Assembly: GCA_965246955.1 (NCBI GenBank)
Contig: CBDFGA010000004.1
Span: 1,888,100 to 1,952,099, forward strand
Reading direction: 5' to 3'
From: Chthonomonadaceae bacterium
GTDB lineage: Bacteria > Armatimonadota > Chthonomonadetes > Chthonomonadales > Chthonomonadaceae
Length of the DNA: 64,000 nt
Shown here: piece after piece, positions 42,844-61,523 of the stretch
How the letters are laid out: each line of letters begins with the position of its first letter
How positions within the stretch are numbered: the stretch's first letter is position 1
Notes under the pieces: generated by a model
Databases searched by the model: none
Told to the model about the DNA's origin: nothing
Seen by the model: the letters and a program-made list of their open reading frames with translations, nothing else
Translations under genes and position numbers: made by a program

Positions 42844-42845
42844 AG

Positions 42846-42958: not shown

Positions 42959-42970
42959 TGTTTTGGAGAA

Positions 42971-47303: not shown

Positions 47304-47406
47304 GAATGATGAATGATGAATGATGAATCAAAATGCCTCCTTTGTTATTCGTGAAAACGGACAGCAAACGGGCGTATTAGATTCATCATTCATCATTCAT
47401 CATTTT
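47304..47406. repeat. MITE-like element, family D, copy 2
   Basis: gaatgatgaatgatgaatgatgaatc ... gattcatcattcatcattcatcatt. Lies between rsmI start and MBL gene stop. Confidence 0.85.
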
Positions 47407-48614: not shown

Positions 48615-48666
48615 GCGCTTACCCTCTGATGCCCAATACCCGACCCCCGAACCCCGACGCCCGTTC

Positions 48667-49464
48667 CTACTTCGTCGCCCGCCAGTAGCTGCGCAGGCCA
48701 ATCACGAGAACGATCAGCGCGGTCGCCGCCCAGATTGCTCCCCACAGCGTTGCGGGCAGGGCGTAGGTCTTCGCCATATTGCCTGCGTCGTTCTGCATCT
48801 CGCCGCCCGTCGTCAGCGAAAGCAGGATGCCGATGTCGCTGATGGCGTTCAGGCTGCACTGCACCGCGATAAAAGCGGCGGCAAAATTCGCGGCGGCGGG
48901 CGAAAGGAAACGCGCCAGCGCAAAACAGGCTGCCGATAGTCCAAACCCGACCGCCAGCGTAAAGGGATCGTGCCAGCCCCACAGCAGGGTAATCAGCGCA
49001 AGGGCGGCGGACGCGAAATACAGCGCCGTCCTTCCAGGAGCCTGCAATTTCCGCAGCCGCCCGACTTGCAGCATGACCGCGCCGAAAATCGCCGTGCCGA
49101 GGTAGCCCGCCGAATCAATGACCCACGCGCTCAGGAAATTTTGCGTCGCCATCGTGACGCCCTCGCCGTTGGGCTTAATCGCCAGCGAAGCGACGTGATT
49201 GCCCGTCAGCAGCGCCGCCAGCGCATGACCGCTCTCGTGAACAAACGTGATGAACAGCCGCAGCGGGTACAGCAAAACCGTGTTGATTCGGTACATCGTC
49301 AGTCCGACATTTGCCCCGAAGACATAACCCAGCACGAACGGCGCAAACATCAGGGCGAGCGCGGCAAGCGTCGCGCCGAGCAGCAGGTTCCGGGCCTTGC
49401 GTCCGTGTTCGCCCCGTCCCGCGTCCGTCGTGTTAATCAGCGTCAATGGATTTTCGTTTTGCAT
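48667..49464 (-). CDS. M50-family (site-2-protease-like) membrane metallopeptidase
   Basis: HESGHAL HExxH motif inside a TM helix, multiple TM segments. Confidence 0.7.
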   Translation of the reverse strand: MQNENPLTLINTTDAGRGEHGRKARNLLLGATLAALALMFAPFVLGYVFGANVGLTMYRINTVLLYPLRLFITFVHESGHALAALLTGNHVASLAIKPNGEGVTMATQNFLSAWVIDSAGYLGTAIFGAVMLQVGRLRKLQAPGRTALYFASAALALITLLWGWHDPFTLAVGFGLSAACFALARFLSPAAANFAAAFIAVQCSLNAISDIGILLSLTTGGEMQNDAGNMAKTYALPATLWGAIWAATALIVLVIGLRSYWRATK

Positions 49465-49700: not shown

Positions 49701-49725
49701 TCCATTTTTGTCACTATTCACCGCG

Positions 49726-49830
49726 TCCTTGCCACTCGCGCCGGAATGAAAAGCGTGGCGTCTCCCTCCGTCACTCTCTACGGCGCTCCGACCGGCGTTG
49801 TCCTGACGCTATCGAAAGCGGCGCAAGCGA
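49726..49830 (+). pseudogene. Orphan 3' fragment homologous to the C-terminus of the 53880-54530 gene
   Basis: TRAGMKSVASPSVTLYGAPTGVVLTLSKAA versus ARRAGMASVASPAITLYGANVGVVLTLAKAA. No upstream body or start. Confidence 0.45.
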
Positions 49831-49863
49831 AACTAAACGCCCTTGCCATGAAAAAAGCCGAAC

Positions 49864-49900
49864 GCGAAGAAAGGCTTCGCGTTCGGCCTATGCAATGCGG
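49864..49900. terminator. Bidirectional hairpin (gccgaacgcgaag/cttcgcgttcggc)
   Basis: 12-bp perfect stem. Paralogous hairpin at 55655-55692. Confidence 0.6.
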
Positions 49901-49909
49901 GCGCGGCGG

Positions 49910-50083
49910 TTACGATGCCTTGCGCTGTTCCTGAGCCATCTTTTGTTCTTCGCGCATGATCGCCGTTCGTTTCGCCCAGTACGCCAGTTCTTCTTCGGGC
50001 GTCATTCCTGCTGTGCGGGCCTGAATAATTTCCTGCGCCTTGTCTTTCATCTCTACGCAGTCAAACGCTTTGTTCTTTTTCAT
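49910..50083 (-). CDS. Small charged protein, partner of PIN protein (copy A)
   Basis: 57 aa, MKKNKAFDCVEMKDKAQEII...EEQKMAQEQRKAS. Paralogue at 55706-55876. Overlaps the PIN gene end. Confidence 0.5.
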   Translation of the reverse strand: MKKNKAFDCVEMKDKAQEIIQARTAGMTPEEELAYWAKRTAIMREEQKMAQEQRKAS

Positions 50084-50546
50084 TGGTAACCTCCGGCGGC
50101 GAATGAATCGCCACGCTGTTGTAGCCATACAGAGCATTGATGGCGTTGAAACGCTGAATCTTGGAGAACCGCACGATATGCCGAAAATTCCAACTGACAA
50201 TCAGTTCGCAGTCGTTAACAGTAGCGACAGCAACGTGCAGGGCATCGGCAGCAGATTTGGCGGCAAGGATACCCGCATCAAGATACGCTTTTCGCAACGC
50301 CTGCGCTTCGGCAGTAATGTCTACGGTTTCGGCGTAGGTTTTCATCTGCGCATACAACGCCTGCACTTCAAGCGGCGCAGTGGCAATCTCCTCGTCTAGA
50401 GGCGCCGTAACAACGAGCGCGAACTTCCCGCTTTTGACCTCTTCAAAAAAGGCGCGGCTTGCGGCCTCGAATTCCACGTCCACAATGCCGCCGAAAACGG
50501 TGGTGTCGGCATAGGCGCGAATGGAATGTTGGCGAAAGAGCATCAT
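50061..50546 (-). CDS. PIN-like (VapC-like) nuclease domain protein (copy A)
   Basis: Acidic residues at strand ends (AYADTTVF, FEEV, DEEI, DALHVAVA, SWNF) consistent with PIN fold. Toxin-first gene order. Confidence 0.5.
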   Translation of the reverse strand: MMLFRQHSIRAYADTTVFGGIVDVEFEAASRAFFEEVKSGKFALVVTAPLDEEIATAPLEVQALYAQMKTYAETVDITAEAQALRKAYLDAGILAAKSAADALHVAVATVNDCELIVSWNFRHIVRFSKIQRFNAINALYGYNSVAIHSPPEVTNEKEQSV

Positions 50547-50649
50547 TTCGTTCCTCTGCGACGCGCTGCTCTGCGTCCCATTTTCCTTTATTATACAGCA
50601 TAAAATCGCGCCGTCCTCACAAATCTTCCGCGCTACGCAAAATCTACCG

Positions 50650-50772
50650 CCGCAGAAACGCTTGCGGAATGGCGCGTCTGAAAGACGCTTGTTTTTTCTA
50701 GCCGGGTATGTATTGAATAGGAAACACCCGGAAACCCCGCCGAAACTGCCCGCATAAAAAATAATTTACTTT
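50650..50772 (+). promoter_or_regulatory. Conserved leader element L, copy 2 (full), upstream of PEP-CTERM gene
   Basis: cagaaacgcttgcggaatggcgcgtctgaaagacgcttgttttttc (hairpin + T-run) then ...gaaacacccggaaaccccgccgaaactgcccgcataaaaaataattt. Confidence 0.6.
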
Positions 50773-50867
50773 TTTTCGTTGAAAAGGTGTTTCCCGTTCA
50801 ATTTGGCACACATCTTGCAATATACAGACTTGACGAGCAAAATGCCGCCAAAAGGAAACCTACTGTC

Positions 50868-51782
50868 ATGAACCGAAACCTGAAGAACACCATCGCGCTC
50901 GGAGCGTTCGCCCTGCTCGGCCTTACCAGCGCCGCCAACGCGCAGAACGTCGTCAAAACCTTCAACTACACCGGCGACTATCAGACATTCACTGTTCCTT
51001 CCGATGTCAACAACATTTTCGTTCGGCTTTGGGGCGCAGGCGGGGGTAGTGGCGTCAGTAGCGCCGGTATCTTCGTCGGGGGAAGCGGCGGCGCATTTGT
51101 TTCCGGTGTTTTAAGTGTAACACCGGGCAGTACTTTTACTCTGCTTGTGGGCGGCGGCGGTGTTGGTAACAAAGGTGGCTTCGGTGGAGGCGGTTCCGGC
51201 GCCAGTGGAGGGGGCGGACGATCTGCGCTTATGGTCAATACAATCGAGTTGGTTGATGCGGGCGCAGGCGGCGGCGGAAACTTTAGTGGTGGAGCAGGCG
51301 GTGTATTGATAGGTCAGGCAGGCGGGGACAGTTTTGCGGGGGGCGGCGGTGGCGGCGGAACACAGAACGCAGGGGGCGCAGGTGGTCTTGGGCGGCCTGA
51401 TAACGGGCAGAGCGGCAGTCAATTTCAGGGAGGAAGCAATATCTTTTGCGGCGGCGGCGGCGGCGGTTATTATGGCGGTGGCAGCGGTGGGACGGACACT
51501 GATGGCAATGGTAGCGGCGGCGGCGGCGGTTCTTCCTACATTAGCGGCCTTGCGAGCATCGGAAATACGCAGGATGGCAATGGCGCTACTCCTGGAGGCA
51601 TGAGCGACCCCTACTATCTATCCAACGTCGGCGTGGGCGGAAACCATGCTAGTGGTGGCAATGGCGAAATTGTCTTTGCTTACTCGTCCTCTATTGCCGC
51701 CACGCCTGCCCCTTCCTCTCTGCTCGTTGCACTTGGTGGGATTGTTTCGGGCGTCGGGGTTCTTCGCAGGCGGCGCAAATAG
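50868..51782 (+). CDS. Glycine-rich secreted protein with PEP-CTERM-type sorting tail
   Basis: Signal peptide, GGxGG-rich body. C-terminus ATPAPSSLLVALGGIVSGVGVLRRRRK (TM + RRRRK). Confidence 0.8.
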   Translation: MNRNLKNTIALGAFALLGLTSAANAQNVVKTFNYTGDYQTFTVPSDVNNIFVRLWGAGGGSGVSSAGIFVGGSGGAFVSGVLSVTPGSTFTLLVGGGGVGNKGGFGGGGSGASGGGGRSALMVNTIELVDAGAGGGGNFSGGAGGVLIGQAGGDSFAGGGGGGGTQNAGGAGGLGRPDNGQSGSQFQGGSNIFCGGGGGGYYGGGSGGTDTDGNGSGGGGGSSYISGLASIGNTQDGNGATPGGMSDPYYLSNVGVGGNHASGGNGEIVFAYSSSIAATPAPSSLLVALGGIVSGVGVLRRRRK

Positions 51783-51804
51783 GTTCCATTCTTCGCGGGA
51801 TTTG

Positions 51805-51843
51805 GGGCCGCGCTTTTCCTCTGCTTTGGGGAAAGCGCGGCCC
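51805..51843 (+). terminator. Conserved terminator-like palindrome T (gggccgcgcttttcc..ggaaagcgcggccc), copy 1
   Basis: Recurs at 52485-52524 and 58706-58745. Variant at 54549-54585. Followed by cttgttg and a GTATAATA box. Confidence 0.6.
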
Positions 51844-51887
51844 TTGTTGCGGCGCATGGTATAATAAAAATAAATTGGGAGCGCGGC

Positions 51888-52175
51888 ATGAACTTCGAAT
51901 GGGACGAGGTTAAACGCAGCAGCAATATCGCCAAACATGGTCTGGATTTTGCCGATGCTTCCGCGATGTTCGGTCTTGCGATGTTCGTTGTTCCCGACGA
52001 CCGCGAAGACTACGGCGAACTGCGCTATCGGGGTATCGGACTGCTGAACGGCGCTTTCGCCGCCGTTGTATTCACCGAACCCGATGAGGAAACCATCCGC
52101 CTGATTTCGCTGCGACGGGCTACGCCACAGGAGCGACGCATTTATGAGCATGAAATCAAACAAAATGGATATTGA
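51888..52175 (+). CDS. BrnT-family toxin (DUF497), second type
   Basis: FEWDEVKRSSNIAKHGLDFADASAMF...IRLISLRRATPQERRIYE. Promoter ggtataataaaa 22 nt upstream. Confidence 0.75.
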   Translation: MNFEWDEVKRSSNIAKHGLDFADASAMFGLAMFVVPDDREDYGELRYRGIGLLNGAFAAVVFTEPDEETIRLISLRRATPQERRIYEHEIKQNGY

Positions 52176-52383
52176 CCCGGAAAACCCGCCGATGACGGAA
52201 GCGCAGGCCAGAAAAGGCTGGGTTCGCCTGCCGGACGGGACGCGGATCGTTCCGGCGCGAATGGACGCTCCGACGTATCAATGGTTTATGTCGCAGGGGC
52301 AGGACATTCCCGCGCAGATCGAAGCGGCGCTGCGCGATTACGCGGCGGCGCGGCGGCGCGAACAGCCGCCGCAATCGGCCTGA
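52144..52383 (+). CDS. DUF4415/BrnA-like antitoxin
   Basis: PENPPMTEAQARKG motif typical of DUF4415 partners of BrnT. Overlaps toxin 3' end. Confidence 0.55.
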   Translation: MSMKSNKMDIDPENPPMTEAQARKGWVRLPDGTRIVPARMDAPTYQWFMSQGQDIPAQIEAALRDYAAARRREQPPQSA

Positions 52384-52463
52384 CGCCCGCGTCCTCCTCC
52401 ATTCTGGTTGTTTTGATTGGGGCGGTTCCGCTTATCGGGGCGCTTCGCAGGCGGCGCAAATAG
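52383..52463 (+). pseudogene. Orphan PEP-CTERM sorting-tail remnant (TPASSSILVVLIGAVPLIGALRRRRK)
   Basis: Homologous to the tails at 51702-51782 and 58605-58685. Followed by the same palindrome T. No protein body upstream; the BrnT/antitoxin pair sits there instead. Confidence 0.65.
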
Positions 52464-52484
52464 GTTCGTTTCCTTGCGGGCTTT

Positions 52485-52524
52485 GGGACCGCGCTTTTCC
52501 TCTGCTTCGGGGAAAGCGCGGCCC
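52485..52524 (+). terminator. Palindrome T, copy 2
   Basis: gggaccgcgcttttcctctgcttcggggaaagcgcggccc. Downstream -10 gcgtataatag at 52546. Confidence 0.6.
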
Positions 52525-52604
52525 TTGTTGTTGCGGGCGGAAATAGCGTATAATAGAAGTGGAACATTCGCCTGCTTGCAGGCAACGACGAAAGGACGCC
52601 GCGC

Positions 52605-52853
52605 ATGACCCTTACCCTTACCCCGGAACTGGAATACGCCGTCAACGAAAAGGCAAAGCGGCAGGGCGTTCCGCCTGAACATCTCGCCATGCGGGAATTG
52701 CAACGCCTCTTTTTGCCCGCCGACGCATGGGAAATGCAGGTTCACCGCTATCAAAGCCTTGTGGAAAAAGATTTCTTAGGCGGCCTGACAGCGGAAGAAG
52801 CGCAGGAGTGCGAAAGGCTTGGAGCCGCGATTGACGCCGCCGAAACGCCCTGA
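52605..52853 (+). CDS. Small hypothetical protein preceding HNH endonuclease
   Basis: GAAAGGA SD. 82 aa, acidic C-terminus. Confidence 0.4.
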   Translation: MTLTLTPELEYAVNEKAKRQGVPPEHLAMRELQRLFLPADAWEMQVHRYQSLVEKDFLGGLTAEEAQECERLGAAIDAAETP

Positions 52854-52868
52854 AAGGACGCCTGCCGC

Positions 52869-53348
52869 ATGGCCCGTTTCCGCCGAACCGTCCCCGCCCC
52901 GATACTTGCCGCTCAAAAGAATTATCAGGCCTATCGCCCTTACGTTCGGCGCGACTTCGAAGAATGTTGCGCCTACTGCCTGCGTCACGAAGATTGGGCC
53001 GAAGCGGAGACTTTCGAGTTAGACCACCGCCGTCCGCAGTCCCTCTTTCCTGAAGACAAGTACGATTTTTATAATCTTTGCTACACCTGCCGGCGTTGCA
53101 ATATGAGAAAATTGCACTACTACCCCGACGCCGATTTGCTTGCCGCCGGAATTGGCTTTGTAGATTATTGCGTGGATGACTTCGCCACACATTTCGAGAT
53201 TGGCGATAATGACCTCTGGGTTCCGCAAACCGATTCCGCCCCCTTCACCCTGCGTATCCTGCGCCTCAACAGCGATTTTCTGGTTCGTCAGCGGCTTTTT
53301 CTGCGTGACAATGGTTTTGCCATAGACCGCCCCGCCCCGTCCCGCTAA
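52869..53348 (+). CDS. HNH endonuclease
   Basis: CAYCL...FELDHRRPQS...NLCYTCRRCNMRK (Cys4 + His/Asn HNH motif). Confidence 0.75.
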   Translation: MARFRRTVPAPILAAQKNYQAYRPYVRRDFEECCAYCLRHEDWAEAETFELDHRRPQSLFPEDKYDFYNLCYTCRRCNMRKLHYYPDADLLAAGIGFVDYCVDDFATHFEIGDNDLWVPQTDSAPFTLRILRLNSDFLVRQRLFLRDNGFAIDRPAPSR

Positions 53349-53385
53349 ACGCCCTGCGCGAAGGAAACGGCGCGGGGCGTTTACT

Positions 53386-53501
53386 CCGCCCTCCGCAATC
53401 GGGTACAATATATCGCTATTGAACAAAGACGTTCCGCCGCACTCATCTCCATTCATTTTGACGGCGAGGGCGAACAAAGGATACCGAAAGCGATGACCGC
53501 C
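53386..53501 (+). promoter_or_regulatory. Duplicate of the ppdK promoter/leader including its ATGAC start
   Basis: About 90% identical to 58752-58870 (ccgccctccgcaatcgggtacaatatatcgctattgaacaaagacgttccgccgcactc...gaacaaaggataccgaaagcgATGac). Here it leads only to a 12-codon ORF. Confidence 0.65.
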
Positions 53502-53879
53502 GGACTTGTAAGCCGCGCTGCAATCGCCTGAAACCGCGCCGGGAACGGCGAAAATCCTCTCCCGCTTTGGTTTGTTCTCCTCCTCAAGTTTGCTTCTTGT
53601 CTCTCCGATAATTTCCCTGTTAACGCGCCGGTTTGTTCCCGTCCTAAAGGCGATTTTGCCCGCGCCGCTGTCTTTGTTCTGCGTAATGCGGCCTTCGCGT
53701 TTCATCATGCGGGTGTCTCCTTCCGCGTCAGGAGCATGAAAGGCGGCGGGACTGTCTTCAACCGCCGCGCTATGAAATTCCACTGCGGCGGCGCGAAACG
53801 CAAAGGCCGCGCCGTAAGCGACAAAGACGGCGAGACAGCGAACGAAAACGGAACCGGCATCTATCCGAGGAGCAGGAAA

Positions 53880-54530
53880 ATGAGTAGCGATTATATGCCC
53901 AAAGGCAAGACCCAACTGCAAGCGTGGCTGAACAATTTCAACGCCGTCGCAAGCGCGAACATGGCGACATTGGGCCTGACCGCCGCTGATATTACCGCAT
54001 TGAGCGGAACGACGGGCGGCTTTACGTCCTCCGTTGCGGTGGTGAAAACGGCGAAGGCCAATCTCAAAGCGGCGACGCAGGGCGAAACCAGCGCAACCCG
54101 AACCGTGAACGCCACCGTGCGCGGCGTGGTGCGGCGCATCCAGTCCAACGCGGCGGTTTCGCCTTCGCTCAAAGGGTCGCTGGGCATCAATCCGCGCAAC
54201 GCCCCCAGAAATCACGCCCCGCCTGTGACCCCGACGGGACTGACGGCGGAAGGGTTCAGCACGGGAGTCAATCGCCTGAACTGGAACCGCGCCGGGAACA
54301 AACCCAACACGATTTTCGTGATTGAAGCGCAAAGCGGGGCCAGTACGCAATGGACGGAAGTCGGGAGCGTGACCGCTACCAAATTCGATCACGTCGGGCA
54401 GACTCCGGGCGTGAAGACGGCGTACCGGGTCACGGCGCGGCGGGCGGGCATGGCGAGCGTGGCAAGTCCCGCCATCACGCTCTACGGCGCGAACGTCGGC
54501 GTGGTTCTCACGCTGGCGAAGGCGGCGTAA
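53880..54530 (+). CDS. Hypothetical protein with FN3-like C-terminal region
   Basis: GAGGAG SD. C-terminal 30 aa are duplicated as the orphan fragment at 49726-49830. Confidence 0.45.
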   Translation: MSSDYMPKGKTQLQAWLNNFNAVASANMATLGLTAADITALSGTTGGFTSSVAVVKTAKANLKAATQGETSATRTVNATVRGVVRRIQSNAAVSPSLKGSLGINPRNAPRNHAPPVTPTGLTAEGFSTGVNRLNWNRAGNKPNTIFVIEAQSGASTQWTEVGSVTATKFDHVGQTPGVKTAYRVTARRAGMASVASPAITLYGANVGVVLTLAKAA

Positions 54531-54644
54531 AGCGTCCGGGTTTTCAGGAACGAAGCCGCGCCTTTTCAATTTGGCGCGGCCCTTGTTGCGGACGGCGAAA
54601 ATCGTGTATAATAGGAGCAAGAAATCTTTGACGCAGGAGCGGAA

Positions 54645-55253
54645 ATGATGCCGACGTATCAAGACGAATCAACGCAATTCCTACAGCGGGCCGAAGCGGT
54701 TTACAATGAGAAACTCCGCGCCACGCTCGATACGCCCGAAAATCGCGGCAAATTCCTCGCGCTTGAACCCGACAGCGGCGCTTACGAAGTCCGCGACGAA
54801 CTGCGTCAGGCGGCGGATTGGGTTCGCGCCTGTTGTCGCGGCAAGCGCGTTTACGCCACGCGCATCGGGCAGGAAACGTTTCCCAATCGCGGCTGCTTTC
54901 CCTGTATCCTCACGGCGCTACACGCGGCGGAAAACAAGAACGCGCCCTGCGGCGAGGAGGCTTTCCGCCCGCGAAACAATCCCGCGCCAACGGAACCGGA
55001 AGAACTGGCGAAGGTCAATCGGCGCGGCAGGGACGTTTACGAAACAAAACTTCGCGCCGCGCTGGACACGCCGGAGAACTACGGCAAAACCCTTGTGATT
55101 GACCCCGACAGCGCGGATTACGAAATGGGCGAGAACCATTACGCCCTGCTTGATGCCCTGCGCATTCGCCACCCGGACAAACTTTCCTACTCCATGCGGA
55201 TTGGCTATGCGAAAATGGCCCATGCGCTCGGCGCCCGGAGCGTGAGAAAGTAG
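54645..55253 (+). CDS. Tandem-repeat small protein, upstream partner of retropepsin-like protease
   Basis: Internal duplication VYNEKLRATLDTPENRGKFLALEPDSGAYEV / VYETKLRAALDTPENYGKTLVIDPDSADYEM. Promoter gtgtataatagg 30 nt upstream. Single-repeat paralogue at 63315-63611. Confidence 0.6.
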   Translation: MMPTYQDESTQFLQRAEAVYNEKLRATLDTPENRGKFLALEPDSGAYEVRDELRQAADWVRACCRGKRVYATRIGQETFPNRGCFPCILTALHAAENKNAPCGEEAFRPRNNPAPTEPEELAKVNRRGRDVYETKLRAALDTPENYGKTLVIDPDSADYEMGENHYALLDALRIRHPDKLSYSMRIGYAKMAHALGARSVRK

Positions 55254-55625
55254 ATGATTACCGCCCCCGTCGCAGAGGACTTCACGGTTCGCTTTTACAT
55301 CAAATTCATCGGCGATAACGGAATGGAATTGGACTTCTCCGTTCTGTTCGATACGGGGTTCAATCGCCATATCGCCCTGCCCCGCGACATCATAGACGCG
55401 CTTGGCTATCCCGAAATCGGCGCGGTGGAAATCACGCTGGCGGACGGGGCGCCGCAAAACGTCACGCTTCACAATGGCAAAATGGTGTGGGACGGGCAGG
55501 AAGTCGGCGTCACGATCCATTGTCTGGCGGGCGAGGGACTGCTTGGAACGCTTCAAATCGAAAACTACCTTGTGACAATTCCCGCCCGCGTCGGCGAAAC
55601 CGTGACCTTCGCCCTCATGCCATAG
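55254..55625 (+). CDS. Retropepsin-like (clan AA) aspartic protease domain protein
   Basis: LFDTGFNRHIALP contains the D-T-G catalytic triad. About 120 aa, single-domain. Start overlaps upstream stop (TAGATG). Paralogue at 62941-63330 (VIDTGFNGTFTLP). Confidence 0.6.
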   Translation: MITAPVAEDFTVRFYIKFIGDNGMELDFSVLFDTGFNRHIALPRDIIDALGYPEIGAVEITLADGAPQNVTLHNGKMVWDGQEVGVTIHCLAGEGLLGTLQIENYLVTIPARVGETVTFALMP

Positions 55626-55654
55626 CCCCCAATCCCCGCCCTGAATAGAAAAGC

Positions 55655-55692
55655 CGAACGCGAAGCCCTTCTTCGCGTTCGGCTCATAATCT
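55655..55692. terminator. Bidirectional hairpin (gccgaacgcgaag/cttcgcgttcggc), copy 2
   Basis: Shared by the convergent aspartic-protease and PIN modules. Confidence 0.6.
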
Positions 55693-55705
55693 ACGGGCGC
55701 GGCGG

Positions 55706-55876
55706 TTACGACGCCTTGCGCTGTTCCAGCAGGGCCTGTTGCTTTTCGCGCAGTTCCCGGTTCCGCCGGTTCCAGTAAGCCGCTTCTTCTTCCGGCGTCA
55801 TGGTTTCCAGTTTCGCCTGCAATTTTGCCGCGCCTTTGCGCTTCATCTCCACACAATCGAAAGGCTTATTCTCCAT
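55706..55876 (-). CDS. Small charged partner protein of PIN (copy B)
   Basis: MENKPFDCVEMKRKGAAKLQ...EKQQALLEQRKAS, paralogue of 49910-50083. Confidence 0.5.
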   Translation of the reverse strand: MENKPFDCVEMKRKGAAKLQAKLETMTPEEEAAYWNRRNRELREKQQALLEQRKAS

Positions 55877-56339
55877 CTTTGATAACCTCCGGCGGCGAAT
55901 GAATCGCCACACTCCGATAGCCGTACAAGGCATTGACGGCGTTGAAACGCTGAATTTTGGAATAGCGCACAATGTGATTGAAGTTCCAGCTGACAATCAG
56001 TTCGCAATCGGCAACGCTCGCCGTCGCGACGTGCAGGGCATCCGTTGCGGATTTAGCGGTCAGGATGCCCGCCTTGAGATATTCTGCCTGCAAAGCCCTC
56101 GCTTCGTCCGTGACCAGCACAACTTCCGCGTAAGTTACCATCTCCTGAAACAAATTCTGCACTTTGAGCGGCGCGTCGGCGATTTCGTCTTCCACAGGCG
56201 CCGCAATCACAAGCGCAAAACCTCCGTTGGGCGCCTCATCGAAAAAGGCGCGGCTTGCCGTCTCGAACTCAACATCCACAATGCCGCCAAAGACCGTTGT
56301 TTCCGCATAGACGCGAATGGGATGCTGGCGAATGTTCAT
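55866..56339 (-). CDS. PIN-like nuclease domain protein (copy B)
   Basis: About 70% identical to copy A. Promoter box ctgtagaataaagga on the minus strand upstream. Confidence 0.5.
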   Translation of the reverse strand: MNIRQHPIRVYAETTVFGGIVDVEFETASRAFFDEAPNGGFALVIAAPVEDEIADAPLKVQNLFQEMVTYAEVVLVTDEARALQAEYLKAGILTAKSATDALHVATASVADCELIVSWNFNHIVRYSKIQRFNAVNALYGYRSVAIHSPPEVIKDGE

Positions 56340-56474
56340 GGTTTCAATCCTCTCCGGCGCGATACCCTGCGTCCCATTTTCCTTTATTCTACAGCATAAG
56401 TCCGCGCCGCCGTTCCGGGCGGCGAAAATGGAGTATAATAAAGCAGAGAAATCTTCGGACGGGAGAATGGACGC

Positions 56475-56741: not shown

Positions 56742-57008
56742 CTACGCCGCTCGTTCCGCTTTGGGTTCTGCCGGGACAAGAAAGACGCGAATGTTTTCCT
56801 GCGCGAAAATGGCGTCCTCGGCCCGCCCCAATTCCTCGTAGTATTCGTATAGTTTCGGCGGTTCGTAGTCGGGCTGAACGGGAACGCGCCAGACAGACTC
56901 ATCGCGGCGGATTCGCGCTTCAATTATGTCCAGATTGGAACCGCCGGGGTGAATGGCGCTCAAATGCTTGCGGGCGGCGCGGGCGACCTGCTGAATTTCC
57001 TCACTCAT
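56742..57008 (-). CDS. Small acidic protein, downstream partner of HEPN protein
   Basis: 88 aa. 8-nt overlap with the HEPN gene. Confidence 0.35.
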   Translation of the reverse strand: MSEEIQQVARAARKHLSAIHPGGSNLDIIEARIRRDESVWRVPVQPDYEPPKLYEYYEELGRAEDAIFAQENIRVFLVPAEPKAERAA

Positions 57009-57387
57009 CTTCTACCTCCAGGGTTTCATAGACGCGATAAACATCTCGAATACAGGCAACTGCAACGGCCCGCGTAACATCCGCCCCGGGACGGTAATCG
57101 GCGTCTTCGCGGGCGCGGCGCAGGCGAATAATGGTTTGCCGAAGCCGATACCGCCCCGCTTTCGGAACGCGGGGCATATGACTTAATACGAGTTCCGGCA
57201 GTTGATGGTGCGCGGGATTGTTCCAATCGGCGGGAAACGAGACTTTCTCACGGATTAACTCGGCGGTGATAAGGCAGTAAACGGCATAGTAAGCGCTGCT
57301 CATACTGCGCCGATAACAGCCGCCGTTCATCAAAAGTTGAGCGGACTTCAAGCAATCCCGACTCATTTCTTCCCACGTCCCCATCAA
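57001..57387 (-). CDS. HEPN-domain protein (putative RNase toxin or nucleotide-sensor)
   Basis: Helical N-terminus (SAQLLMNGGCYRRSMSSAYYAVYCLITA). Rx4-6[HY]-like motif RLRRAREDADYR. Minus-strand promoter box tgtataataaagga upstream. Confidence 0.5.
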   Translation of the reverse strand: MMGTWEEMSRDCLKSAQLLMNGGCYRRSMSSAYYAVYCLITAELIREKVSFPADWNNPAHHQLPELVLSHMPRVPKAGRYRLRQTIIRLRRAREDADYRPGADVTRAVAVACIRDVYRVYETLEVEDE

Positions 57388-57494
57388 TCGTTCTCCATGA
57401 AAACAGAAACGCCCGAACGCCCGCGCTTATCCTTTATTATACAGCATAAATCCGCGCCGCCGTTCCAAATTTTCCACCCTGTGCAAAATTCACC

Positions 57495-57605
57495 GCCGCA
57501 GAAACGCTTGCGGAATGGCGCGTCTGAAAGACGCTTGTTTTTTCCTGCCGGGCTGAATTTGGTAATTATGAAACTCCCGGCAACCCCGGCAATAAAAAAA
57601 ATTTC
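57495..57605 (+). promoter_or_regulatory. Conserved leader element L, copy 3, upstream of NHL PEP-CTERM gene
   Basis: cagaaacgcttgcggaatggcgcgtctgaaagacgcttgttttttc...ggtaattatgaaactcccggcaaccccggcaataaaaaaaattt. Confidence 0.6.
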
Positions 57606-57725
57606 TCCTGATGAAACTATCAGCCCGCCGCGCTCGTAAAATCCATGAGGCAAGCAAATAAAGGCCCTGCGCCCGCTTCCCGCGATTTCACCGGCAGTAA
57701 CGATTCAGGAAAGGTAGACCCGAAA

Positions 57726-58685
57726 ATGCGCAACCTCGTCCGCAACGCCTTCGCGCTCATAGCGCTTGCCCTGCTCGGCACAGCAAACGCCAATGCGCAA
57801 ACATACGTTTTTGACAGCAACATAGGCAATCCCTATAACGGTAGCAATAGCAACGGGCACCTGTTTTACCCTAGAGGTGTCGCGGTAGACGGTAACGGTA
57901 ACGTTTTTGTCGCAGACGGTTCCGATGGTGGTGTTGAGGAATTCAACAGCGGTGGAACGTTCATCCGCAATATCGGCGTTTCAGGCAGTGGTCAGTTGGA
58001 TTACGCTGGTAGTGTCGCTGTTGATGGCAACGGCAATTTATATGTGGCGGACGGTACCAACAACCGAATTGTGGAGTTTAATAATAGCGGCGCGTTCGTC
58101 CGCAATATCGGTACTTCTGGTACAAGCAATGGACAGTTGATCTCGCCTACCAGTGTTGTACTAGATAACAGCGGGAATCTGTATGTCGCGGACTCTGGCA
58201 ACAATCGCATAGAGGAATTTAACCAAAATGGCGGATTTGTTCGCGCCATTAGTAATACGTCCTTCCAAAATCCACAGGGCGTCGCACTAGACAAAAGCGG
58301 CAATATCTACATCGTAGACAATGGCATTGATGAATTGAATAGTAGCGGCACGTTTGTTCGTTACATCGGGGCTGGAAAGGTGTTCGATCCTAGCGGCGTC
58401 ATCTTAGATCGCAGTGGTAATATCTATGTTGCAGATTTGGATACGCAACTTTCGGAGTTCAATAGCGCAGGCAACTTTGTCCAAACTGTCGGCTTTGGAT
58501 ATTTGGTTAGGCCTTTTGGTCTTGCGTTTGATGGAAGCAACAATCTTTACGTTGGGGACATAAACAACCAGTACGTGACAAAGTTCCGTAACACTTCCGC
58601 CGCTACTCCTGCGCCTTCCTCTGTTCTGATTGTTCTGCTTGGGGCGGTTCCGCTTGTCGGGGTGCTTCGCAGGCGGCGCAAGTAG
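57726..58685 (+). CDS. NHL-repeat beta-propeller protein with PEP-CTERM-type sorting tail
   Basis: Signal peptide. Six NHL-like repeats (GN.YVAD..NNRI.EF). Tail ATPAPSSVLIVLLGAVPLVGVLRRRRK. Confidence 0.85.
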   Translation: MRNLVRNAFALIALALLGTANANAQTYVFDSNIGNPYNGSNSNGHLFYPRGVAVDGNGNVFVADGSDGGVEEFNSGGTFIRNIGVSGSGQLDYAGSVAVDGNGNLYVADGTNNRIVEFNNSGAFVRNIGTSGTSNGQLISPTSVVLDNSGNLYVADSGNNRIEEFNQNGGFVRAISNTSFQNPQGVALDKSGNIYIVDNGIDELNSSGTFVRYIGAGKVFDPSGVILDRSGNIYVADLDTQLSEFNSAGNFVQTVGFGYLVRPFGLAFDGSNNLYVGDINNQYVTKFRNTSAATPAPSSVLIVLLGAVPLVGVLRRRRK

Positions 58686-58705
58686 GCTTGTTTCCTCGCA
58701 GGCTT

Positions 58706-58745
58706 TGGGGCCGCGCTTTTCCTCGGCTTTGGGGAAAGCGCGGCC
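58706..58745 (+). terminator. Palindrome T, copy 3
   Basis: ggggccgcgcttttcctcggctttggggaaagcgcggccc. Confidence 0.6.
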
Positions 58746-58751
58746 CTTGTT

Positions 58752-58865
58752 GTTTCCGCCCTCCGCAATCGGGTACAATATATCGCTATTGAACAAAGAC
58801 GTTCCGCCGCACTCCTTCTTTATGCATATTTTGACGGCGAGGACGAACAAAGGATACCGAAAGCG
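58752..58865 (+). promoter_or_regulatory. ppdK promoter/leader (original of the 53386-53501 duplicate)
   Basis: gggtacaatat -10-like box. gaacaaaggataccg SD-like stretch before ATG. Confidence 0.55.
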
Positions 58866-61523
58866 ATGACGAAACGAGTTTACCTGTTTGAAGAAGGCGA
58901 TAAGTCCATGCGCGACCTGCTCGGCGGCAAGGGCGCAAACCTCGCCGAAATGACCAAAATCGGCCTGCCCGTTCCCCCCGGCTTCACCATCACCACCGAC
59001 ACCTGCAACGAATACTACGCCAACGGCAAAACCCTGCCCGCCCCCCTCATGGACGAAGTTCTCACCGCCTTGTCCGACGTGGAGAACAAACTCGGCAAGA
59101 AGTTCGGCGAGGTTGGCAATCCTCTCCTGCTTTCCGTGCGTTCCGGCGCCCGCTTTTCCATGCCCGGCATGATGGACACCGTGCTGAACCTCGGCCTCAA
59201 CGACGCCATTATCGCCCAACTCGTGACCGTGACCGACCCGCGCTTTGTCTACGATTCCTACCGCCGCTTCATTATGATGCTCTCCGACGTGGCCTATTCC
59301 GACAAGTTCGACCACATGAGCAAGCACGATTTCGAGCATCTTTTCGCCGACCTCAAGACCGAACTCGGCGTGAAGGAAGACCTCGAAGTCAGCGCGGACG
59401 GCCTCAAGACCCTGTGCGAGCGCTACAAGGCGCACGTCCTCGCGCACATCGGAAGCGAATTTCCGCAAGACCCCACCATTCAGTTGCAGGCCGCGATTGA
59501 GGCCGTGTTCCGCTCGTGGAACAACGAACGCGCCTTCATCTACCGCCGCCGCGAAAAAATCTCCGACGACATCGGAACCGCCGTCAACGTGCAAAGCATG
59601 GTCTTCGGCAACATGGGCGAGGACTGCGGCACGGGCGTGGCCTTCACCCGCAACGCTTCCACCGGCGAGAACGTGGTCTTTGGCGAATACCTGATGAACG
59701 CGCAGGGCGAAGATGTGGTTGCGGGCGTCCGAACGCCCATGCCCATTGAGCAGCTTGCCAGCCAGAACCCGGAAATCTACAAGCAGTTTGATGAAGTGTG
59801 CAAGACGCTCGAAGGCCACTACAAGGATATGCAAGACATCGAGTTCACCATTGAGCATAACAAACTCTTCATCCTGCAATGCCGAAGCGGAAAGCGCACC
59901 GGCCCCGCCGCCGTGAAAATCGCGGTAGATCAAGTCGCTGAAGGCCTAATCACGAAAGAGGAAGCGATTGCCCGCGTGGAGCCGGAACTCCTCAACCACT
60001 GCCTGCTTCCGGTAATTCCGCAGAACACGAAGTACAACGTCCTCGCCAAAGGACTGCCCGCCGGCCCCGGTGCGGCGACGGGCATTGCGATTTTTGACGC
60101 GGAGCGCGCGGCGGAACTCGGCAAGGGCGGTTTAGGCCAGAAGGTCATTCTCGTTCGCGCCGACACCAGCCCCGACGACCTCAAAGGGATGCTGGCGGCG
60201 CAGGGCGTCCTGACGGAAAAGGGCGGCATGACCTCCCACGCGGCGCTCGTGGCGCGCGGCTTCGGCATCCCCACGGTTGCGGGCTGTTCCGAAATCGCCG
60301 TTGACGCGGGCAAGCGGCAGTTCACGGTAAACGGGCAGACCGTGAAAGAGGGCGACGAAATTTCGCTCAACGGCACCCTGGGCGAAGTCATTCTTGGCGG
60401 CGTCCCGGTGGAAGACGCGAAACTGACCGGCGAATTCGGCACGTTCCTCGGCTGGGCGGACGAAATGCGAACGCTCGGAATCCGCACGAACGCCGACACT
60501 CCCAAAGACACCGAACTCGCCATCAAATTCGGCGCTGAAGGCATTGGCCTGTGCCGCACGGAGCATATGTTCTTCGCCGAAGAGCGCCGCCCCGTCGTAC
60601 AGCGCATGATCCTCGCCAAAGACGAGGCCACCCGGCAGGCCGCGCTTGACGAACTGCTTCCCTTTCAGCGCGAGGACTTCAAGGGCATTTTCGAGGCGCT
60701 CGAAGGCCGTCCCGCCACCATCCGCCTGATTGACCCGCCCCTCCATGAGTTCCTGCCCAACATGGAAGAACTCATCGAGGAGATCGCCACCCTCCACGCG
60801 CAGGGCAAGTCCGATCCCGCCAAAGAGGAAATGCTCACGGCGGTCAAGTCCATGCACGAGATCAACCCGATGATGGGACTGCGCGGCTGCCGCCTCTCGA
60901 TTGTGTTCCCCGGCATCGTCGTGATGCAGACGCGGGCCATCCTCGAAGGCGCGGCGGCGGTCATCAAAGCGGGCGGCGCGGCCCACCCGGAGATTATGAT
61001 CCCCCTCGTCGGACACGTCAACGAACTCAAGACCGTGCGCGAAGGGCTGGAAAAGACAGCGAAAGCGGTGGAAGCGGAACAGGGCATCACGATCCCCTAC
61101 CAGTTCGGCACCATGATTGAAGTGCCTCGCGGCGCCCTGACCGCGGATGAAATCGCCCCCGAAGCGGAGTTCTTCTCGTTCGGAACGAATGACCTGACGC
61201 AGATGACGTTCGGCTTCTCCCGCGACGACAGCGACAAGTTCCTCAAGCCCTATGTGGCGCAGAAAATCCTTGCCGTTGATCCGTTCGAGAGCATTGACCA
61301 AAGCGGCGTGGGTCTGCTGATGGAGATGGCGGTGGCGAAAGGGCGGGGCGTGAAGCCGGGGCTGAAGATGGGCATTTGCGGCGAACACGGCGGCGAACCG
61401 CGTTCCATCGCCTTCTGCCACAAGATCGGCCTCAACTACGTGAGTTGTTCGCCCTACCGGGTTCCGATAGCGCGGCTTGCGGCGGCGCAGGCGGCCCTCG
61501 GCAAAGGCGTCAGCGACAAGTAG
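58866..61523 (+). CDS. ppdK: Pyruvate, phosphate dikinase
   Basis: 885 aa. PEP-utilising enzyme mobile His domain (GGMTSHAALVARGFGIP), N-terminal ATP-grasp, C-terminal TIM barrel (GICGE). Confidence 0.95.
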   Translation: MTKRVYLFEEGDKSMRDLLGGKGANLAEMTKIGLPVPPGFTITTDTCNEYYANGKTLPAPLMDEVLTALSDVENKLGKKFGEVGNPLLLSVRSGARFSMPGMMDTVLNLGLNDAIIAQLVTVTDPRFVYDSYRRFIMMLSDVAYSDKFDHMSKHDFEHLFADLKTELGVKEDLEVSADGLKTLCERYKAHVLAHIGSEFPQDPTIQLQAAIEAVFRSWNNERAFIYRRREKISDDIGTAVNVQSMVFGNMGEDCGTGVAFTRNASTGENVVFGEYLMNAQGEDVVAGVRTPMPIEQLASQNPEIYKQFDEVCKTLEGHYKDMQDIEFTIEHNKLFILQCRSGKRTGPAAVKIAVDQVAEGLITKEEAIARVEPELLNHCLLPVIPQNTKYNVLAKGLPAGPGAATGIAIFDAERAAELGKGGLGQKVILVRADTSPDDLKGMLAAQGVLTEKGGMTSHAALVARGFGIPTVAGCSEIAVDAGKRQFTVNGQTVKEGDEISLNGTLGEVILGGVPVEDAKLTGEFGTFLGWADEMRTLGIRTNADTPKDTELAIKFGAEGIGLCRTEHMFFAEERRPVVQRMILAKDEATRQAALDELLPFQREDFKGIFEALEGRPATIRLIDPPLHEFLPNMEELIEEIATLHAQGKSDPAKEEMLTAVKSMHEINPMMGLRGCRLSIVFPGIVVMQTRAILEGAAAVIKAGGAAHPEIMIPLVGHVNELKTVREGLEKTAKAVEAEQGITIPYQFGTMIEVPRGALTADEIAPEAEFFSFGTNDLTQMTFGFSRDDSDKFLKPYVAQKILAVDPFESIDQSGVGLLMEMAVAKGRGVKPGLKMGICGEHGGEPRSIAFCHKIGLNYVSCSPYRVPIARLAAAQAALGKGVSDK

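What the first reader, a model, noticed from the sequence alone, without database searches (positions are those of the whole stretch)
53386..53501. Second copy of the ppdK promoter/leader (with start codon) stranded 5 kb upstream
About 116 bp (TACAAT-like box, long leader, SD-like gaacaaaggataccg and ATGAC) are about 90% identical to the region immediately upstream of ppdK (58752-58870). Here the ATG opens only a 12-codon ORF, and about 375 bp of non-coding DNA follow before the next gene (53880). Either this is a relic of a ppdK duplication/rearrangement, or the promoter has been recruited to drive the 53880-54530 gene. The long untranslated stretch could hold a regulatory RNA.
Basis: seen in the sequence. 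Interest (0 to 1): 0.55.

Follow-up and report, generated by a model that had tools for sequence, protein, structure and literature searches.

The report
Stranded duplicate of the ppdK promoter
A second, nearly identical copy of the ppdK promoter and leader 5.4 kb upstream is real. It is best read as a leftover gene end from recombination that stacked accessory gene cassettes next to ppdK, a scar also found in every close relative, and not as a new regulatory device.

Summary
The repeat is confirmed. Copy A (53385-53498) matches copy B (58755-58871, the ppdK promoter, leader and ATGAC): 60 nt identical, then a 10/13-nt scrambled patch, then 42/44 identical (blastn 93%, E 1e-42).

It is not an isolated oddity. 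A and B close two tandem, colinear, diverged units (73-87% identical): 216-aa gene, PIN-like gene, PEP-CTERM gene, terminator, ppdK leader.

The organism is an Armatimonadota bacterium. All six contigs of the immediate relatives have partial ppdK copies beside the intact gene, at the 5' or 3' end and each with a different boundary. None was found on seven contigs carrying four ppdK sequences of 82-85% identity, and 1 in 80 diverse species has one. TA, HNH and PEP-CTERM cassettes lie between the copies.

The 3' fragments differ from the resident gene almost only at synonymous sites (pN/pS 0-0.18), so they are captured alleles rather than copies decaying in place. No integrase, constant crossover site, Rfam hit or unusually stable fold was found.

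The downstream 216-aa gene has its own conserved promoter-like boxes.

Verdict: copy A is a displaced ppdK 5' end left by homology-anchored duplicative recombination. It is probably still transcriptionally active, but as a by-product.

The parts
53385..53498 (+). Copy A: stranded ppdK promoter, 5' leader, SD, ATG and one codon (ATGACC). The -10 GGTACAAT is at 53402-53409 and the conserved box AACAAAGACGTT at 53422-53433. The variable patch is 53445-53454.
   Evidence: (D14). It is identical in sister contig L081 3510-3622.
58755..58871 (+). Copy B: the resident ppdK promoter and leader, directly upstream of ppdK. The -10 is at 58772-58779, the box at 58792-58803 and the variable patch at 58815-58827.
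   Evidence: The leader motifs are conserved upstream of ppdK in L082, L083, L085 and L093.
58866..61523 (+). ppdK (pyruvate, phosphate dikinase), 885 aa, intact.
   Evidence: Pfam PPDK_N, PEP-utilizers and PEP-utilizers_C. It is 99% identical to P0001.
53493..53531 (+). 12-codon ORF opened by the stranded ppdK start codon. The rearrangement joint lies at 53498|53499, after codon 2.
   Evidence: Read. Alignments.
53499..53879 (+). Spacer with no gene. 53499 to about 53560 aligns weakly to the last codons and decayed terminator of a PEP-CTERM gene. Conserved promoter-like boxes are CTCAAGT (53583-53589), then 17 nt, then GATAAT (53607-53612), and CTGTTAACGCGCCGG (53617-53631).
   Evidence: Four-way alignment with L093, L092 and L091. 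No ORF support. No RNA family and no unusual fold.
53880..54530 (+). 216-aa gene of unknown function, the first gene of unit 2. The family was found only in close relatives.
   Evidence: No Pfam, NCBIfam or PHROG match.
54645..55625 (+). Two-gene cassette: a 202-aa protein plus a 123-aa clan AA aspartic protease.
   Evidence: TIGR03698, E 4.5e-10, below the curated cut-off.
55866..56342 (-). Unit 2 copy of the unit 1 PIN-like gene (50061-50546). It lies inside the 73% identical repeat 55649-56409 = 49853-50613. No PIN hit was obtained for this copy itself.
   Evidence: (weak PIN hit on the unit 1 copy only).
56742..57387 (-). 88-aa protein plus HEPN-domain protein (TA-like pair).
   Evidence: HEPN, E 8e-10. 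The same pair is called in L081.
57645..58685 (+). NHL-repeat protein with a PEP-CTERM-type tail, the last gene of unit 2. Its body is replaced by a different gene in L081.
58605..58754 (+). T: PEP-CTERM tail plus a 17-bp-stem terminator (58707-58747), abutting copy B.
   Evidence: (D1).
52383..52532 (+). T': orphan PEP-CTERM tail fragment plus terminator, 87% identical to T. It is the left partner of copy A, separated from it by the HNH cassette.
   Evidence: The fragment passes the TIGR02595 cut-off.
52533..53378 (+). Self-contained cassette inserted in the T|L junction: -10-like GCGTATAAT, an 82-aa ORF (52605-52853), an HNH endonuclease (52869-53348) and a GC-rich hairpin (53350-53379).
   Evidence: HNH Pfam E 7e-7. 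The uninterrupted T|L junction CTTGTTTACTCCGCCC is seen in L093 and in L082 copy 2. An 83% identical cassette sits elsewhere in L092.
51850..52382 (+). BrnT/BrnA-like toxin-antitoxin cassette, flanked by direct repeats T'' (51696-51849) and T'.
   Evidence: BrnT_toxin, E 3.5e-22. Repeats.
49720..51849 (+). Remainder of unit 1: relic of the 216-aa gene's 3' end (49720-49830), PIN-like gene (50061-50546, minus strand), glycine-rich gene (50787-51782) whose 3' end plus terminator forms T''. It is colinear with unit 2.

Best explanation
Copy A is a displaced, stranded ppdK 5' end. It comprises the promoter, the 5' UTR, the Shine-Dalgarno sequence, the ATG and one codon.

It marks the joint between two tandem, colinear but diverged copies of a ~5-6 kb accessory unit. 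The unit order is: 216-aa gene, PIN-like gene, PEP-CTERM gene, terminator T, ppdK leader L.

The most likely origin (inferred) is as follows:
1. DNA from a related strain, carrying its own version of the region upstream of ppdK plus an intact ppdK 5' end, recombined homologously inside or next to ppdK.
2. Its other end joined illegitimately at codon 2 of the resident gene. This is homology-facilitated illegitimate recombination, also called 'sequential displacement'.
3. ppdK stayed intact behind the incoming promoter (B), and the older promoter and leader (A) were left 5.37 kb upstream.

What is shown: the repeat; the two-unit structure; the recurrence of displaced ppdK ends in all immediate relatives; their allelic signature; the lack of a recombinase or a fixed site.

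What is inferred: the direction and exact mechanism of the event, and that A still fires as a promoter.

Two consequences follow. A probably adds read-through transcription into the 53880 operon. The 60-nt identical stretch shared by A and B makes the 5.37-kb block deletable by RecA-type recombination.

The confidence of 0.6 is for this imported-allele version specifically. That A is a rearrangement scar of some kind (this explanation or the in-place duplication rival) I put at about 0.8.
For: 1. The repeat is real and sharply bounded.

2. A and B end two colinear repeat series:
- 49752-49826 ~ 54456-54530
- 49853-50613 ~ 55649-56409
- 50581-50739 ~ 57427-57588
- 51696-51849 ~ 58599-58752
- 53385-53497 ~ 58755-58870

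3. T'|cassette|A equals the contiguous T|B junction. That junction is seen uninterrupted in L093 and in L082 copy 2.

4. Partial ppdK copies flank ppdK on every contig of the immediate relatives:
- L081: A and B, plus 3' fragments covering aa 818-885 and 672-885.
- L082: leader plus 104 nt of ORF at 6079-6297, a third decayed leader at 7075-7240, and 3' fragments covering aa 756-885, 776-885 and 798-831.
- L083: aa 696-885.
- L085: aa 855-885.
- L093: leader plus 121 nt of ORF at 2011-2168, and a 3' fragment.

5. No fragment was found on contigs of 82-85% relatives (L084, L086-L090). Only 1 of 80 diverse GTDB species has one.

6. The six 3' fragments tested have pN/pS of 0.00-0.18 against the resident gene at pS 0.14-0.52. 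All 4 substitutions in the L093 5' fragment are synonymous (my codon reading of the alignment). The divergence therefore arose in functional genes.

7. All fragment boundaries differ and share no motif.

8. No integrase or recombinase was found among the window ORFs scanned between 41.6 and 62.6 kb or among the genes called on the relatives' loci. The only transposase-type genes there are DDE/IS fragments in L082, L084 and L093.

9. Between the window and L081 the block holding A is 0-2% diverged, with 0 differences over 53375-53749. B and ppdK are about 5% diverged. That indicates recombination breakpoints at this locus.

10. L093's resident ppdK is a mosaic. It is 90-96% window-like up to about nt +130 and 42-88% beyond.

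11. The A/B variable patch coincides with the part of the leader that varies in length among functional leaders of relatives.

12. The same logic has been proposed for T6SS and Rhs arrays (PMC5361080).
Against: For copy A itself, which is non-coding, the allelic-origin test cannot be applied. An in-place tandem duplication followed by divergence and gene conversion fits the window alone equally well.

The A/B identity (93%, or 99% outside the patch) is much higher than that of the rest of the two units (73-87%). This needs either constraint, gene conversion or a more recent event.

In L093 a stranded ppdK 5' piece lies at almost the same distance (about 380 nt) upstream of the same 216-aa gene, but ends at ORF nt 121 instead of nt 6. 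This could mean one old event plus a deletion, or a preferred joint on the block side. The simple model does not predict either.

No donor or 'empty-site' haplotype was found. Natural competence or any other DNA-uptake route in this uncultured lineage is unknown.
Confidence: 0.6

Rival explanations
1. An in-place tandem duplication (unequal crossing-over or replication slippage at microhomology) copied a ~5.4-kb segment ending at ppdK codon 2. The two units then diverged, gained and lost cassettes, and the leader copies were kept similar by gene conversion.
For: The colinear two-unit structure. In each genome the stranded copy resembles its own resident leader more than it resembles the other genome's copies: L093 stranded versus resident is 97%, against 93.7% to the window, and both L093 copies share CCCAGAG. 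That is the pattern concerted evolution would give.
Against: The window's unit 1 relic of the 216-aa gene (49720-49924) is closer to L093 (83%) than to its own unit 2 copy (75%). The ppdK fragments in relatives carry a strong purifying-selection signature that decay in place would not give. The block containing A and the ppdK gene have different divergence between the two sister strains.
Confidence: 0.22
2. Copy A is maintained because it is useful. It could act as an extra promoter for the 53880-55625 operon. Alternatively it could act as a decoy that binds the same regulator as the ppdK promoter, coupling cassette expression to central-carbon status.
For: The -10 GGTACAAT and the conserved box AACAAAGACGTT are intact in A. 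GGTAYAAT occurs 6 times in the window against 1.0 expected, always on the + strand, and the five sites I checked lie just upstream of + strand ORFs. No + strand terminator-like site lies between A and 53880. A shows no differences between the window and L081.
Against: The 216-aa gene has its own conserved promoter-like boxes, and in L091 and L092 it lacks any ppdK piece. A stranded leader in L082 (copy 2) has a decayed -10, GAGAACCAT, which shows such copies are not generally preserved. The zero-difference stretch extends over 375 nt of flanking spacer, so it reflects recent common descent rather than selection on A.
Confidence: 0.12
3. A and B are attL and attR of a site-specific integrative element (5.37 kb) that targets the 5' end of ppdK and carries a replacement promoter.
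For: Direct repeats with a 60-nt perfectly identical core flank a block of accessory genes. This arrangement resembles islands that integrate into gene ends.
Against: No integrase or recombinase was found in the block or its surroundings. The block is colinear and homologous with the neighbouring unit, so it is not a foreign element. Across relatives the duplicated ppdK ends have ten or more different boundaries on both sides of the gene. Fragment lengths of 85-703 nt are far longer than typical att cores.
Confidence: 0.03
4. The 381-nt stretch after copy A encodes a structured regulatory RNA or a riboswitch-like leader.
For: It is a long gene-free stretch downstream of an apparently intact promoter.
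Against: Rfam gives no match at gathering thresholds, and the best E-values are about 1 with permissive settings. The MFE z-score is -0.65, and 21 of 100 shuffles fold as well. Outside short promoter-like boxes the homologous spacers of L091, L092 and L093 are poorly conserved.
Confidence: 0.03

Closest known systems
Sequential displacement arrays at Rhs, CDI and T6SS effector-immunity loci, proposed to arise by homology-facilitated illegitimate recombination
   Same: A conserved gene segment serves as the homologous anchor. Incoming DNA brings a new copy of that segment plus new cargo. The older gene end is pushed aside and persists as an orphan fragment in the same orientation. Repeated events give arrays, and no integrase is involved (PMC5361080). 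Here the arrays are ppdK 3' fragments (L081, L082, L083, L085, L093) and 5' fragments (window, L081, L082, L093).
   Different: The anchor is a housekeeping metabolic enzyme, not a polymorphic toxin. Both ends of the gene are affected. The displaced piece in the window is a promoter and leader rather than a coding 3' end. The cargo is TA, HNH and PEP-CTERM cassettes rather than toxin-immunity pairs. The displaced ends offer no obvious selective benefit.
attL/attR direct repeats of integrase-driven genomic islands inserted in gene ends (tRNA, tmRNA or protein-gene 3' ends)
   Same: Direct repeats of a gene end flank accessory DNA, and the target gene stays intact because the inserted DNA supplies a replacement end.
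   Different: No recombinase is present. The crossover position is not fixed, and every fragment has a different boundary. The repeats are long (85-703 nt) and diverged in an allele-like way.
Tandem segmental duplication junctions (merodiploid joints)
   Same: Two colinear units lie head to tail, with a novel joint that places a gene's 5' end next to unrelated upstream sequence.
   Different: The units are 13-27% diverged and differ in cassette content, whereas the leader copies are 93% identical. The evidence from relatives points to imported alleles rather than self-copies.
Cassette exchange between conserved flanks ('minimal mobile elements' of naturally transformable bacteria; from my own knowledge, not checked in the papers library)
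   Same: Self-contained cassettes, running from promoter to terminator, are swapped at equivalent positions between conserved linkers. Three examples: the HNH cassette lies in T|L here but after the 216-aa gene in L092; the PEP-CTERM gene body is swapped between the window and L081; and linker 52516-52559 matches 54574-54617.
   Different: Classical exchange replaces the cassette without duplicating the flank. Here linkers and gene ends are duplicated.

Membership tests
Displaced gene-end fragment from homology-anchored duplicative recombination (HFIR / sequential displacement) | A partial copy of the anchor gene's end, in the same orientation, separated from the intact gene by inserted DNA. 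| tested here: met
   A (53385-53498) and B/ppdK are on the same strand, 5.37 kb apart. Analogous pieces occur in L081, L082, L083, L085 and L093.
Displaced gene-end fragment from homology-anchored duplicative recombination (HFIR / sequential displacement) | Illegitimate joints: variable positions, no shared motif, no target-site specificity. | tested here: met
   Seven 3' left joints lie at aa 672, 696, 756, 776, 798, 818 and 855. The 5' right joints lie at ORF nt 6, 104 and 121. No common sequence is shared.
Displaced gene-end fragment from homology-anchored duplicative recombination (HFIR / sequential displacement) | The fragment and the resident copy diverged as functional alleles, not by decay in place. 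| tested here: inconclusive
   Met for the coding fragments of relatives (pN/pS 0-0.18; 4 of 4 substitutions synonymous in L093, my reading). It cannot be applied to non-coding copy A. The only support there is that the A/B differences cluster in the patch that also varies among functional leaders.
Displaced gene-end fragment from homology-anchored duplicative recombination (HFIR / sequential displacement) | Uptake of foreign DNA and one-sided homologous anchoring demonstrated. | not testable with these tools
   This needs transformation or population time-series data from an uncultured Armatimonadota lineage.
Integrase-mediated island with att repeats | A tyrosine or serine recombinase encoded at or near one end. 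| tested here: not met
   No recombinase domain was found among the window ORFs scanned between 41.6 and 62.6 kb. None appears among genes called on L081-L083, L085 or L093, apart from DDE/IS fragments.
Integrase-mediated island with att repeats | The same crossover core at independent insertions. | tested here: not met
   All boundaries differ.
Known cis-regulatory RNA or sRNA family (Rfam) | A match to a covariance model at its gathering score. | tested here: not met
   0 hits in the whole window. The best permissive hits have E of about 1.
Known cis-regulatory RNA or sRNA family (Rfam) | A fold more stable than shuffled controls, or a conserved structure. | tested here: not met
   z-scores are -0.65, +0.40 and -0.25. 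The spacer is poorly conserved.
Dispersed repeat / MITE carrying a promoter | Many copies at unrelated loci, with terminal inverted repeats or target-site duplications. | tested here: inconclusive
   There are only two copies in the 64-kb window. All copies in relatives lie next to ppdK. An exact 25-mer scan of JGI metagenomes found 0 hits. The complete genome could not be scanned.
Active sigma-70-type promoter | A -10 element matching the genome's own usage, at a suitable distance from a start site. | tested here: met
   GGTACAAT is intact in A. GGTAYAAT is about 6-fold enriched, and all hits are on the + strand; five lie just upstream of + strand ORFs. A -35-like TTTACT lies 18 nt upstream.
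Active sigma-70-type promoter | A mapped transcription start. | not testable with these tools
   No transcriptome data are available.

The most novel reading that the evidence does not exclude
In this genus-level clade of Armatimonadota, ppdK may be a dedicated accretion point. Self-contained defence and TA cassettes would be added on both sides of one housekeeping gene by a process that always re-supplies the gene end.

The process could be driven by the [small ORF + HNH endonuclease] cassettes that repeatedly sit right next to displaced ppdK pieces (window 52605-53348; L081 2706-3473; L082 17050-17866 and 18944-19731).

On this reading the HNH enzymes would act as free-standing homing endonucleases. 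They would cut ppdK alleles that lack them, and the duplicated, synonymously recoded gene end would be the immunity device that lets the element sit at an essential gene.
Probability: 0.08. Interest if true: 0.75.

Novelty: new member of a known kind. Interest (0 to 1): 0.33.

Why it matters
For annotation, the second 'ppdK promoter' should not be read as a regulatory innovation or an sRNA locus. It is a recombination scar, and the 12-codon ORF is an artefact of it.

For genome dynamics, the locus gives a clean natural record of how accessory cassettes pile up next to a core gene without any integrase. Displaced gene ends occur on both sides of ppdK, and their synonymous-only divergence shows they came from other strains' functional alleles. 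This makes the ppdK flanks a convenient marker locus for measuring inter-strain recombination in an uncultured Armatimonadota population.

The direct repeats also predict instability: RecA-mediated loss or circularisation of the 5.37-kb block.

Tried and rejected
- Exact look-up of the window's ppdK found nothing on record.
- An exact 25-mer of the leader in JGI metagenome contigs gave 0 hits, so no empty-site haplotype could be recovered there. I did not use the second scan, because a motif shared by five leader copies was already absent.
- The ppdK upstreams of the two nearest GTDB species (L001 80%, L002 76%) show no similarity to the leader.
- A minus-strand ORF starting at about 53711 has a strong SD (MMKREGR...). 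I considered it as a gene truncated at the joint, but it has no homologue and is not called in L081. Rejected.
- The N-terminal extension of the 53880 gene (start at 53736) is not conserved. Rejected.
- Rfam at gathering and permissive thresholds, and fold z-scores, gave nothing. A weak hairpin puts the A/B variable patch in its loop (53430-53472), but it is no more stable than shuffles.
- No tRNA or tmRNA target is present.
- I considered HNH cassettes as the cause of the duplications. BrnTA and PIN cassettes are also flanked by repeated linkers, and the L092 copy of the window-type HNH cassette has no ppdK piece beside it. The association is therefore not specific, and I kept it only as the low-probability novel reading.
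- Local conservation of A between the window and L081 is uninformative, because the zero-difference tract spans 375 nt.

Full report
**1. The observation**

Reading the two regions and aligning them confirms the repeat.
- 53385-53444 is identical to 58755-58814 (60 nt, family D14).
- A short patch cannot be aligned: A 53445-53454, ATCTCCATTC; B 58815-58827, CTTCTTTATGCAT.
- After it, 42 of 44 positions match, through the SD-like GAACAAAGGATACCG and ATGAC.
- blastn gives 93.1% over 116 columns, E 9e-43.

The ATG at 53493 opens 12 codons. The following 381 nt have no credible gene. The next gene starts at 53880, where M49 of the long ORF is the conserved start.

Both copies begin right after a hairpin. 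B follows the 17-bp-stem terminator of the upstream PEP-CTERM/NHL gene (58707-58747). A follows the GC-rich hairpin 53350-53379 that ends an HNH endonuclease gene.

**2. The surroundings: two tandem diverged units**

A self-comparison of 48-62 kb shows that A and B are the last members of a colinear series of repeats:
- 49752-49826 ~ 54456-54530 (75%)
- 49853-50613 ~ 55649-56409 (73%)
- 50581-50739 ~ 57427-57588 (83%)
- 51696-51849 ~ 58599-58752 (81%)
- 52383-52532 ~ 58605-58754 (87%)
- 53385-53497 ~ 58755-58870 (93%)

The region upstream of ppdK is therefore two head-to-tail versions of one unit: 216-aa gene, PIN-like gene on the minus strand, PEP-CTERM gene, tail plus terminator 'T', ppdK leader 'L'.

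Unit 1 keeps only the last ~110 nt of the 216-aa gene (49720-49830). It has gained two cassettes:
- A BrnT/BrnA cassette (51850-52382), flanked by T''/T' repeats.
- An 846-bp cassette with its own -10 (GCGTATAAT), an 82-aa ORF, an HNH endonuclease and a hairpin (52533-53378).

The second cassette sits exactly inside the T|L junction. The uninterrupted junction CTTGTTTACTCCGCCC is seen in L093 and in L082 copy 2, and A retains its GTTTAC.

Core genes lie to the left: LptF/G, DUF3084, LarC-like, an MBL-fold protein and an M50B peptidase, up to about 49.7 kb. No integrase was found among the ORFs scanned, and no tRNA is present.

**3. Relatives**

ppdK places the organism in Armatimonadota. The nearest GTDB species are 80% and 76% identical.

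A protein search found closer relatives, and I fetched their contigs.
- L081 (ppdK 99% identical) has the same arrangement with both copies. Its copy A is identical to the window's, and its copy B is 95% identical.
- L082 (90%; a 4.86-Mb circular contig) has a second leader plus 104 nt of ORF at 6079-6297, which is 92.8% identical to its resident copy. It also has a third leader at 7075-7240, preceded by a T-like terminator, whose -10 has decayed to GAGAACCAT. Downstream it has three ppdK 3' fragments.
- L083 (91%) has a 190-codon 3' fragment.
- L085 (87%) has a 31-codon 3' fragment.
- L081 has two 3' fragments, of 68 and 214 codons.
- L093 was reached through the 216-aa gene. Its stranded copy covers the 3' part of the leader plus 121 nt of ORF (2011-2168) and lies about 380 nt upstream of the same 216-aa gene, the same position as A. 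It also has a 3' fragment.

In contrast, seven contigs carrying four ppdK sequences of 82-85% identity (L084, L086-L090) have housekeeping neighbours and no fragments. Only 1 of 80 diverse species loci has one.

Between the fragments lie PIN, HEPN, BrnT and XisH/I modules, Mrr, small-ORF+HNH pairs, clan AA protease pairs and PEP-CTERM genes.

**4. What kind of process**

- The boundaries all differ and share no motif. The 3' pieces start at aa 672, 696, 756, 776, 798, 818 and 855. The 5' pieces end at ORF nt 6, 104 and 121. This excludes site-specific integration.
- The six 3' fragments tested differ from the resident gene almost only synonymously (pN/pS 0.00-0.18 at pS 0.14-0.52, no stops). 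All four substitutions in the L093 5' piece are synonymous (my codon reading of the alignment). A dead copy decaying in place would not look like this. The divergence was acquired while each piece was part of a working gene, so they come from different strains' alleles.
- Between the window and L081, the block that contains A is 0-2% diverged, with no difference at all over 53375-53749. B and ppdK are about 5% diverged.
- L093's resident ppdK is window-like (90-96%) only up to about nt +130 and 42-88% identical beyond. Recombination breakpoints therefore fall in and around the ends of ppdK.

The simplest process producing all of this is integration of DNA from related strains. One end is anchored by homology in ppdK, or in another conserved linker such as T. 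The other end is joined illegitimately a little way inside the resident copy. The incoming DNA supplies a complete gene end and the resident end is displaced. This is the logic proposed for orphan arrays at T6SS and Rhs loci (PMC5361080).

An in-place tandem duplication with later gene conversion remains possible for the window itself. The within-genome similarity of stranded and resident leaders would fit it (window 93%, L093 97%, each pair sharing genome-specific bases). However, the unit 1 relic is closer to L093 (83%) than to the window's own unit 2 (75%).

**5. Function of copy A**

The leader is a genuine, clade-conserved ppdK control region. CGGGTACAAT, AACA(A/C)AGACGTT and GCGAGGACG(A/C)AC..AGGA recur upstream of ppdK in L082, L083, L085 and L093.

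GGTAYAAT is enriched sixfold in the window, and every hit is on the + strand. Five of the six lie just upstream of + strand ORFs. A keeps this -10 and the downstream box intact. No + strand terminator-like site lies before 53880. A is therefore probably still a promoter, and its transcript would read into the 53880-55625 genes.

That gene does not depend on A, however. The spacer contains boxes conserved in L091, L092 and L093 within otherwise divergent sequence: CTCAAGT, 17 nt, GATAAT at 53583-53612, and CTGTTAACGCGCCGG at 53617-31. In L091 and L092 no ppdK piece is present at all. There the gene follows a PEP-CTERM gene's tail and terminator, to which window 53499 to about 53560 aligns weakly.

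The decayed -10 of L082 copy 2 shows that stranded leaders are not generally preserved.

Nothing supports a structured RNA.

**6. Comparison and novelty**

The closest known phenomenon is sequential displacement at polymorphic-toxin loci. Integrase-type att duplication fails two defining tests: there is no recombinase and no fixed crossover site.

The stranded promoter itself is an ordinary rearrangement scar. Three things are mildly unusual:
- The anchor is a housekeeping enzyme.
- Both of its ends are affected.
- The pattern is universal in one narrow clade and absent just outside it.

Small-ORF+HNH cassettes repeatedly abut ppdK pieces. This allows a low-probability homing-endonuclease reading that I could not test. 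Other cassette types are flanked by repeats too, and one HNH cassette (in L092) has no ppdK piece beside it.

**7. Verdict**

- The 'relic of a rearrangement' reading is supported and made more specific.
- The 'recruited promoter' reading is unnecessary, though read-through is plausible.
- The 'regulatory RNA' reading is unsupported.
- Interest is modest.

Noticed in passing
window 10261-10409, 25287-25457, 26143-26276; 20722-20836, 42844-42982, 48630-48685; 47305-47404; 31154-31278; 13306-13374: Families of long intergenic palindromes whose arms are built from short tandem repeats, for example CTATCCACGAAACGACACGAAGGGACACGAA and GGTGTCGGGGTTCGGGTGTCGGGTGTCG. Several recur at three loci, with arms of 35-51 nt that are 84-95% complementary. 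They could be REP- or MITE-like elements or unusual bidirectional terminators.
   Followed up: no
window 52605-53348; L081 91-836 and 2706-3473; L082 17050-17866 and 18944-19731; L085 3372-4078; L092 10784-11545: Two-gene cassettes (a small, often coiled-coil-like ORF plus an HNH endonuclease) recur in these islands. In L082 two of them end within 0-24 nt of a displaced ppdK 3' fragment, and in the window and L081 one ends 37 nt before the stranded ppdK leader. The L092 copy has no ppdK piece beside it.
   Followed up: partly
window 57480-58636 versus L081 7613-8470: Between two strains that are otherwise 95-99% identical here, the body of the PEP-CTERM gene in front of ppdK is replaced by an unrelated one (346-aa NHL protein versus a 243-aa protein). 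The 5' promoter/signal region and the 3' PEP-CTERM tail plus terminator are kept, so this is cassette-like gene-body swapping.
   Followed up: partly
L093 6165-9200: The resident ppdK of L093 is a mosaic. T, the leader and the first ~130 nt are 90-96% identical to the window, and the rest of the gene is only 42-88% identical (65% at the protein level). The breakpoint nearly coincides with the end of L093's stranded 5' fragment at nt 121.
   Followed up: partly
window 52516-52559 and 54574-54617; L092 10695-11541: A conserved 'terminator end + GCGTATAAT' linker precedes different cassettes at equivalent positions: the HNH cassette in one place and the 202-aa/aspartic-protease pair in another. 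In L092 the HNH cassette sits after the 216-aa gene. This suggests linker-mediated cassette exchange.
   Followed up: partly
window 28796-28922: 33-nt tandem repeats in a coding region, encoding a Lys/Met/His-rich repeat (GKM.H.KM...) (families D8 and D18).
   Followed up: no
L080 14727-14870: An unrelated Anaerolineales MAG also carries a 48-codon ppdK 3' fragment 2 kb downstream of its ppdK. It is the only such case among 80 diverse species loci.
   Followed up: no
L082 1-4464: In the 4.86-Mb relative, the variable region upstream of ppdK abuts a type I CRISPR-Cas module (Cas3, Cas6). The ppdK flank is therefore a general accessory and defence hot spot in this clade.
   Followed up: no
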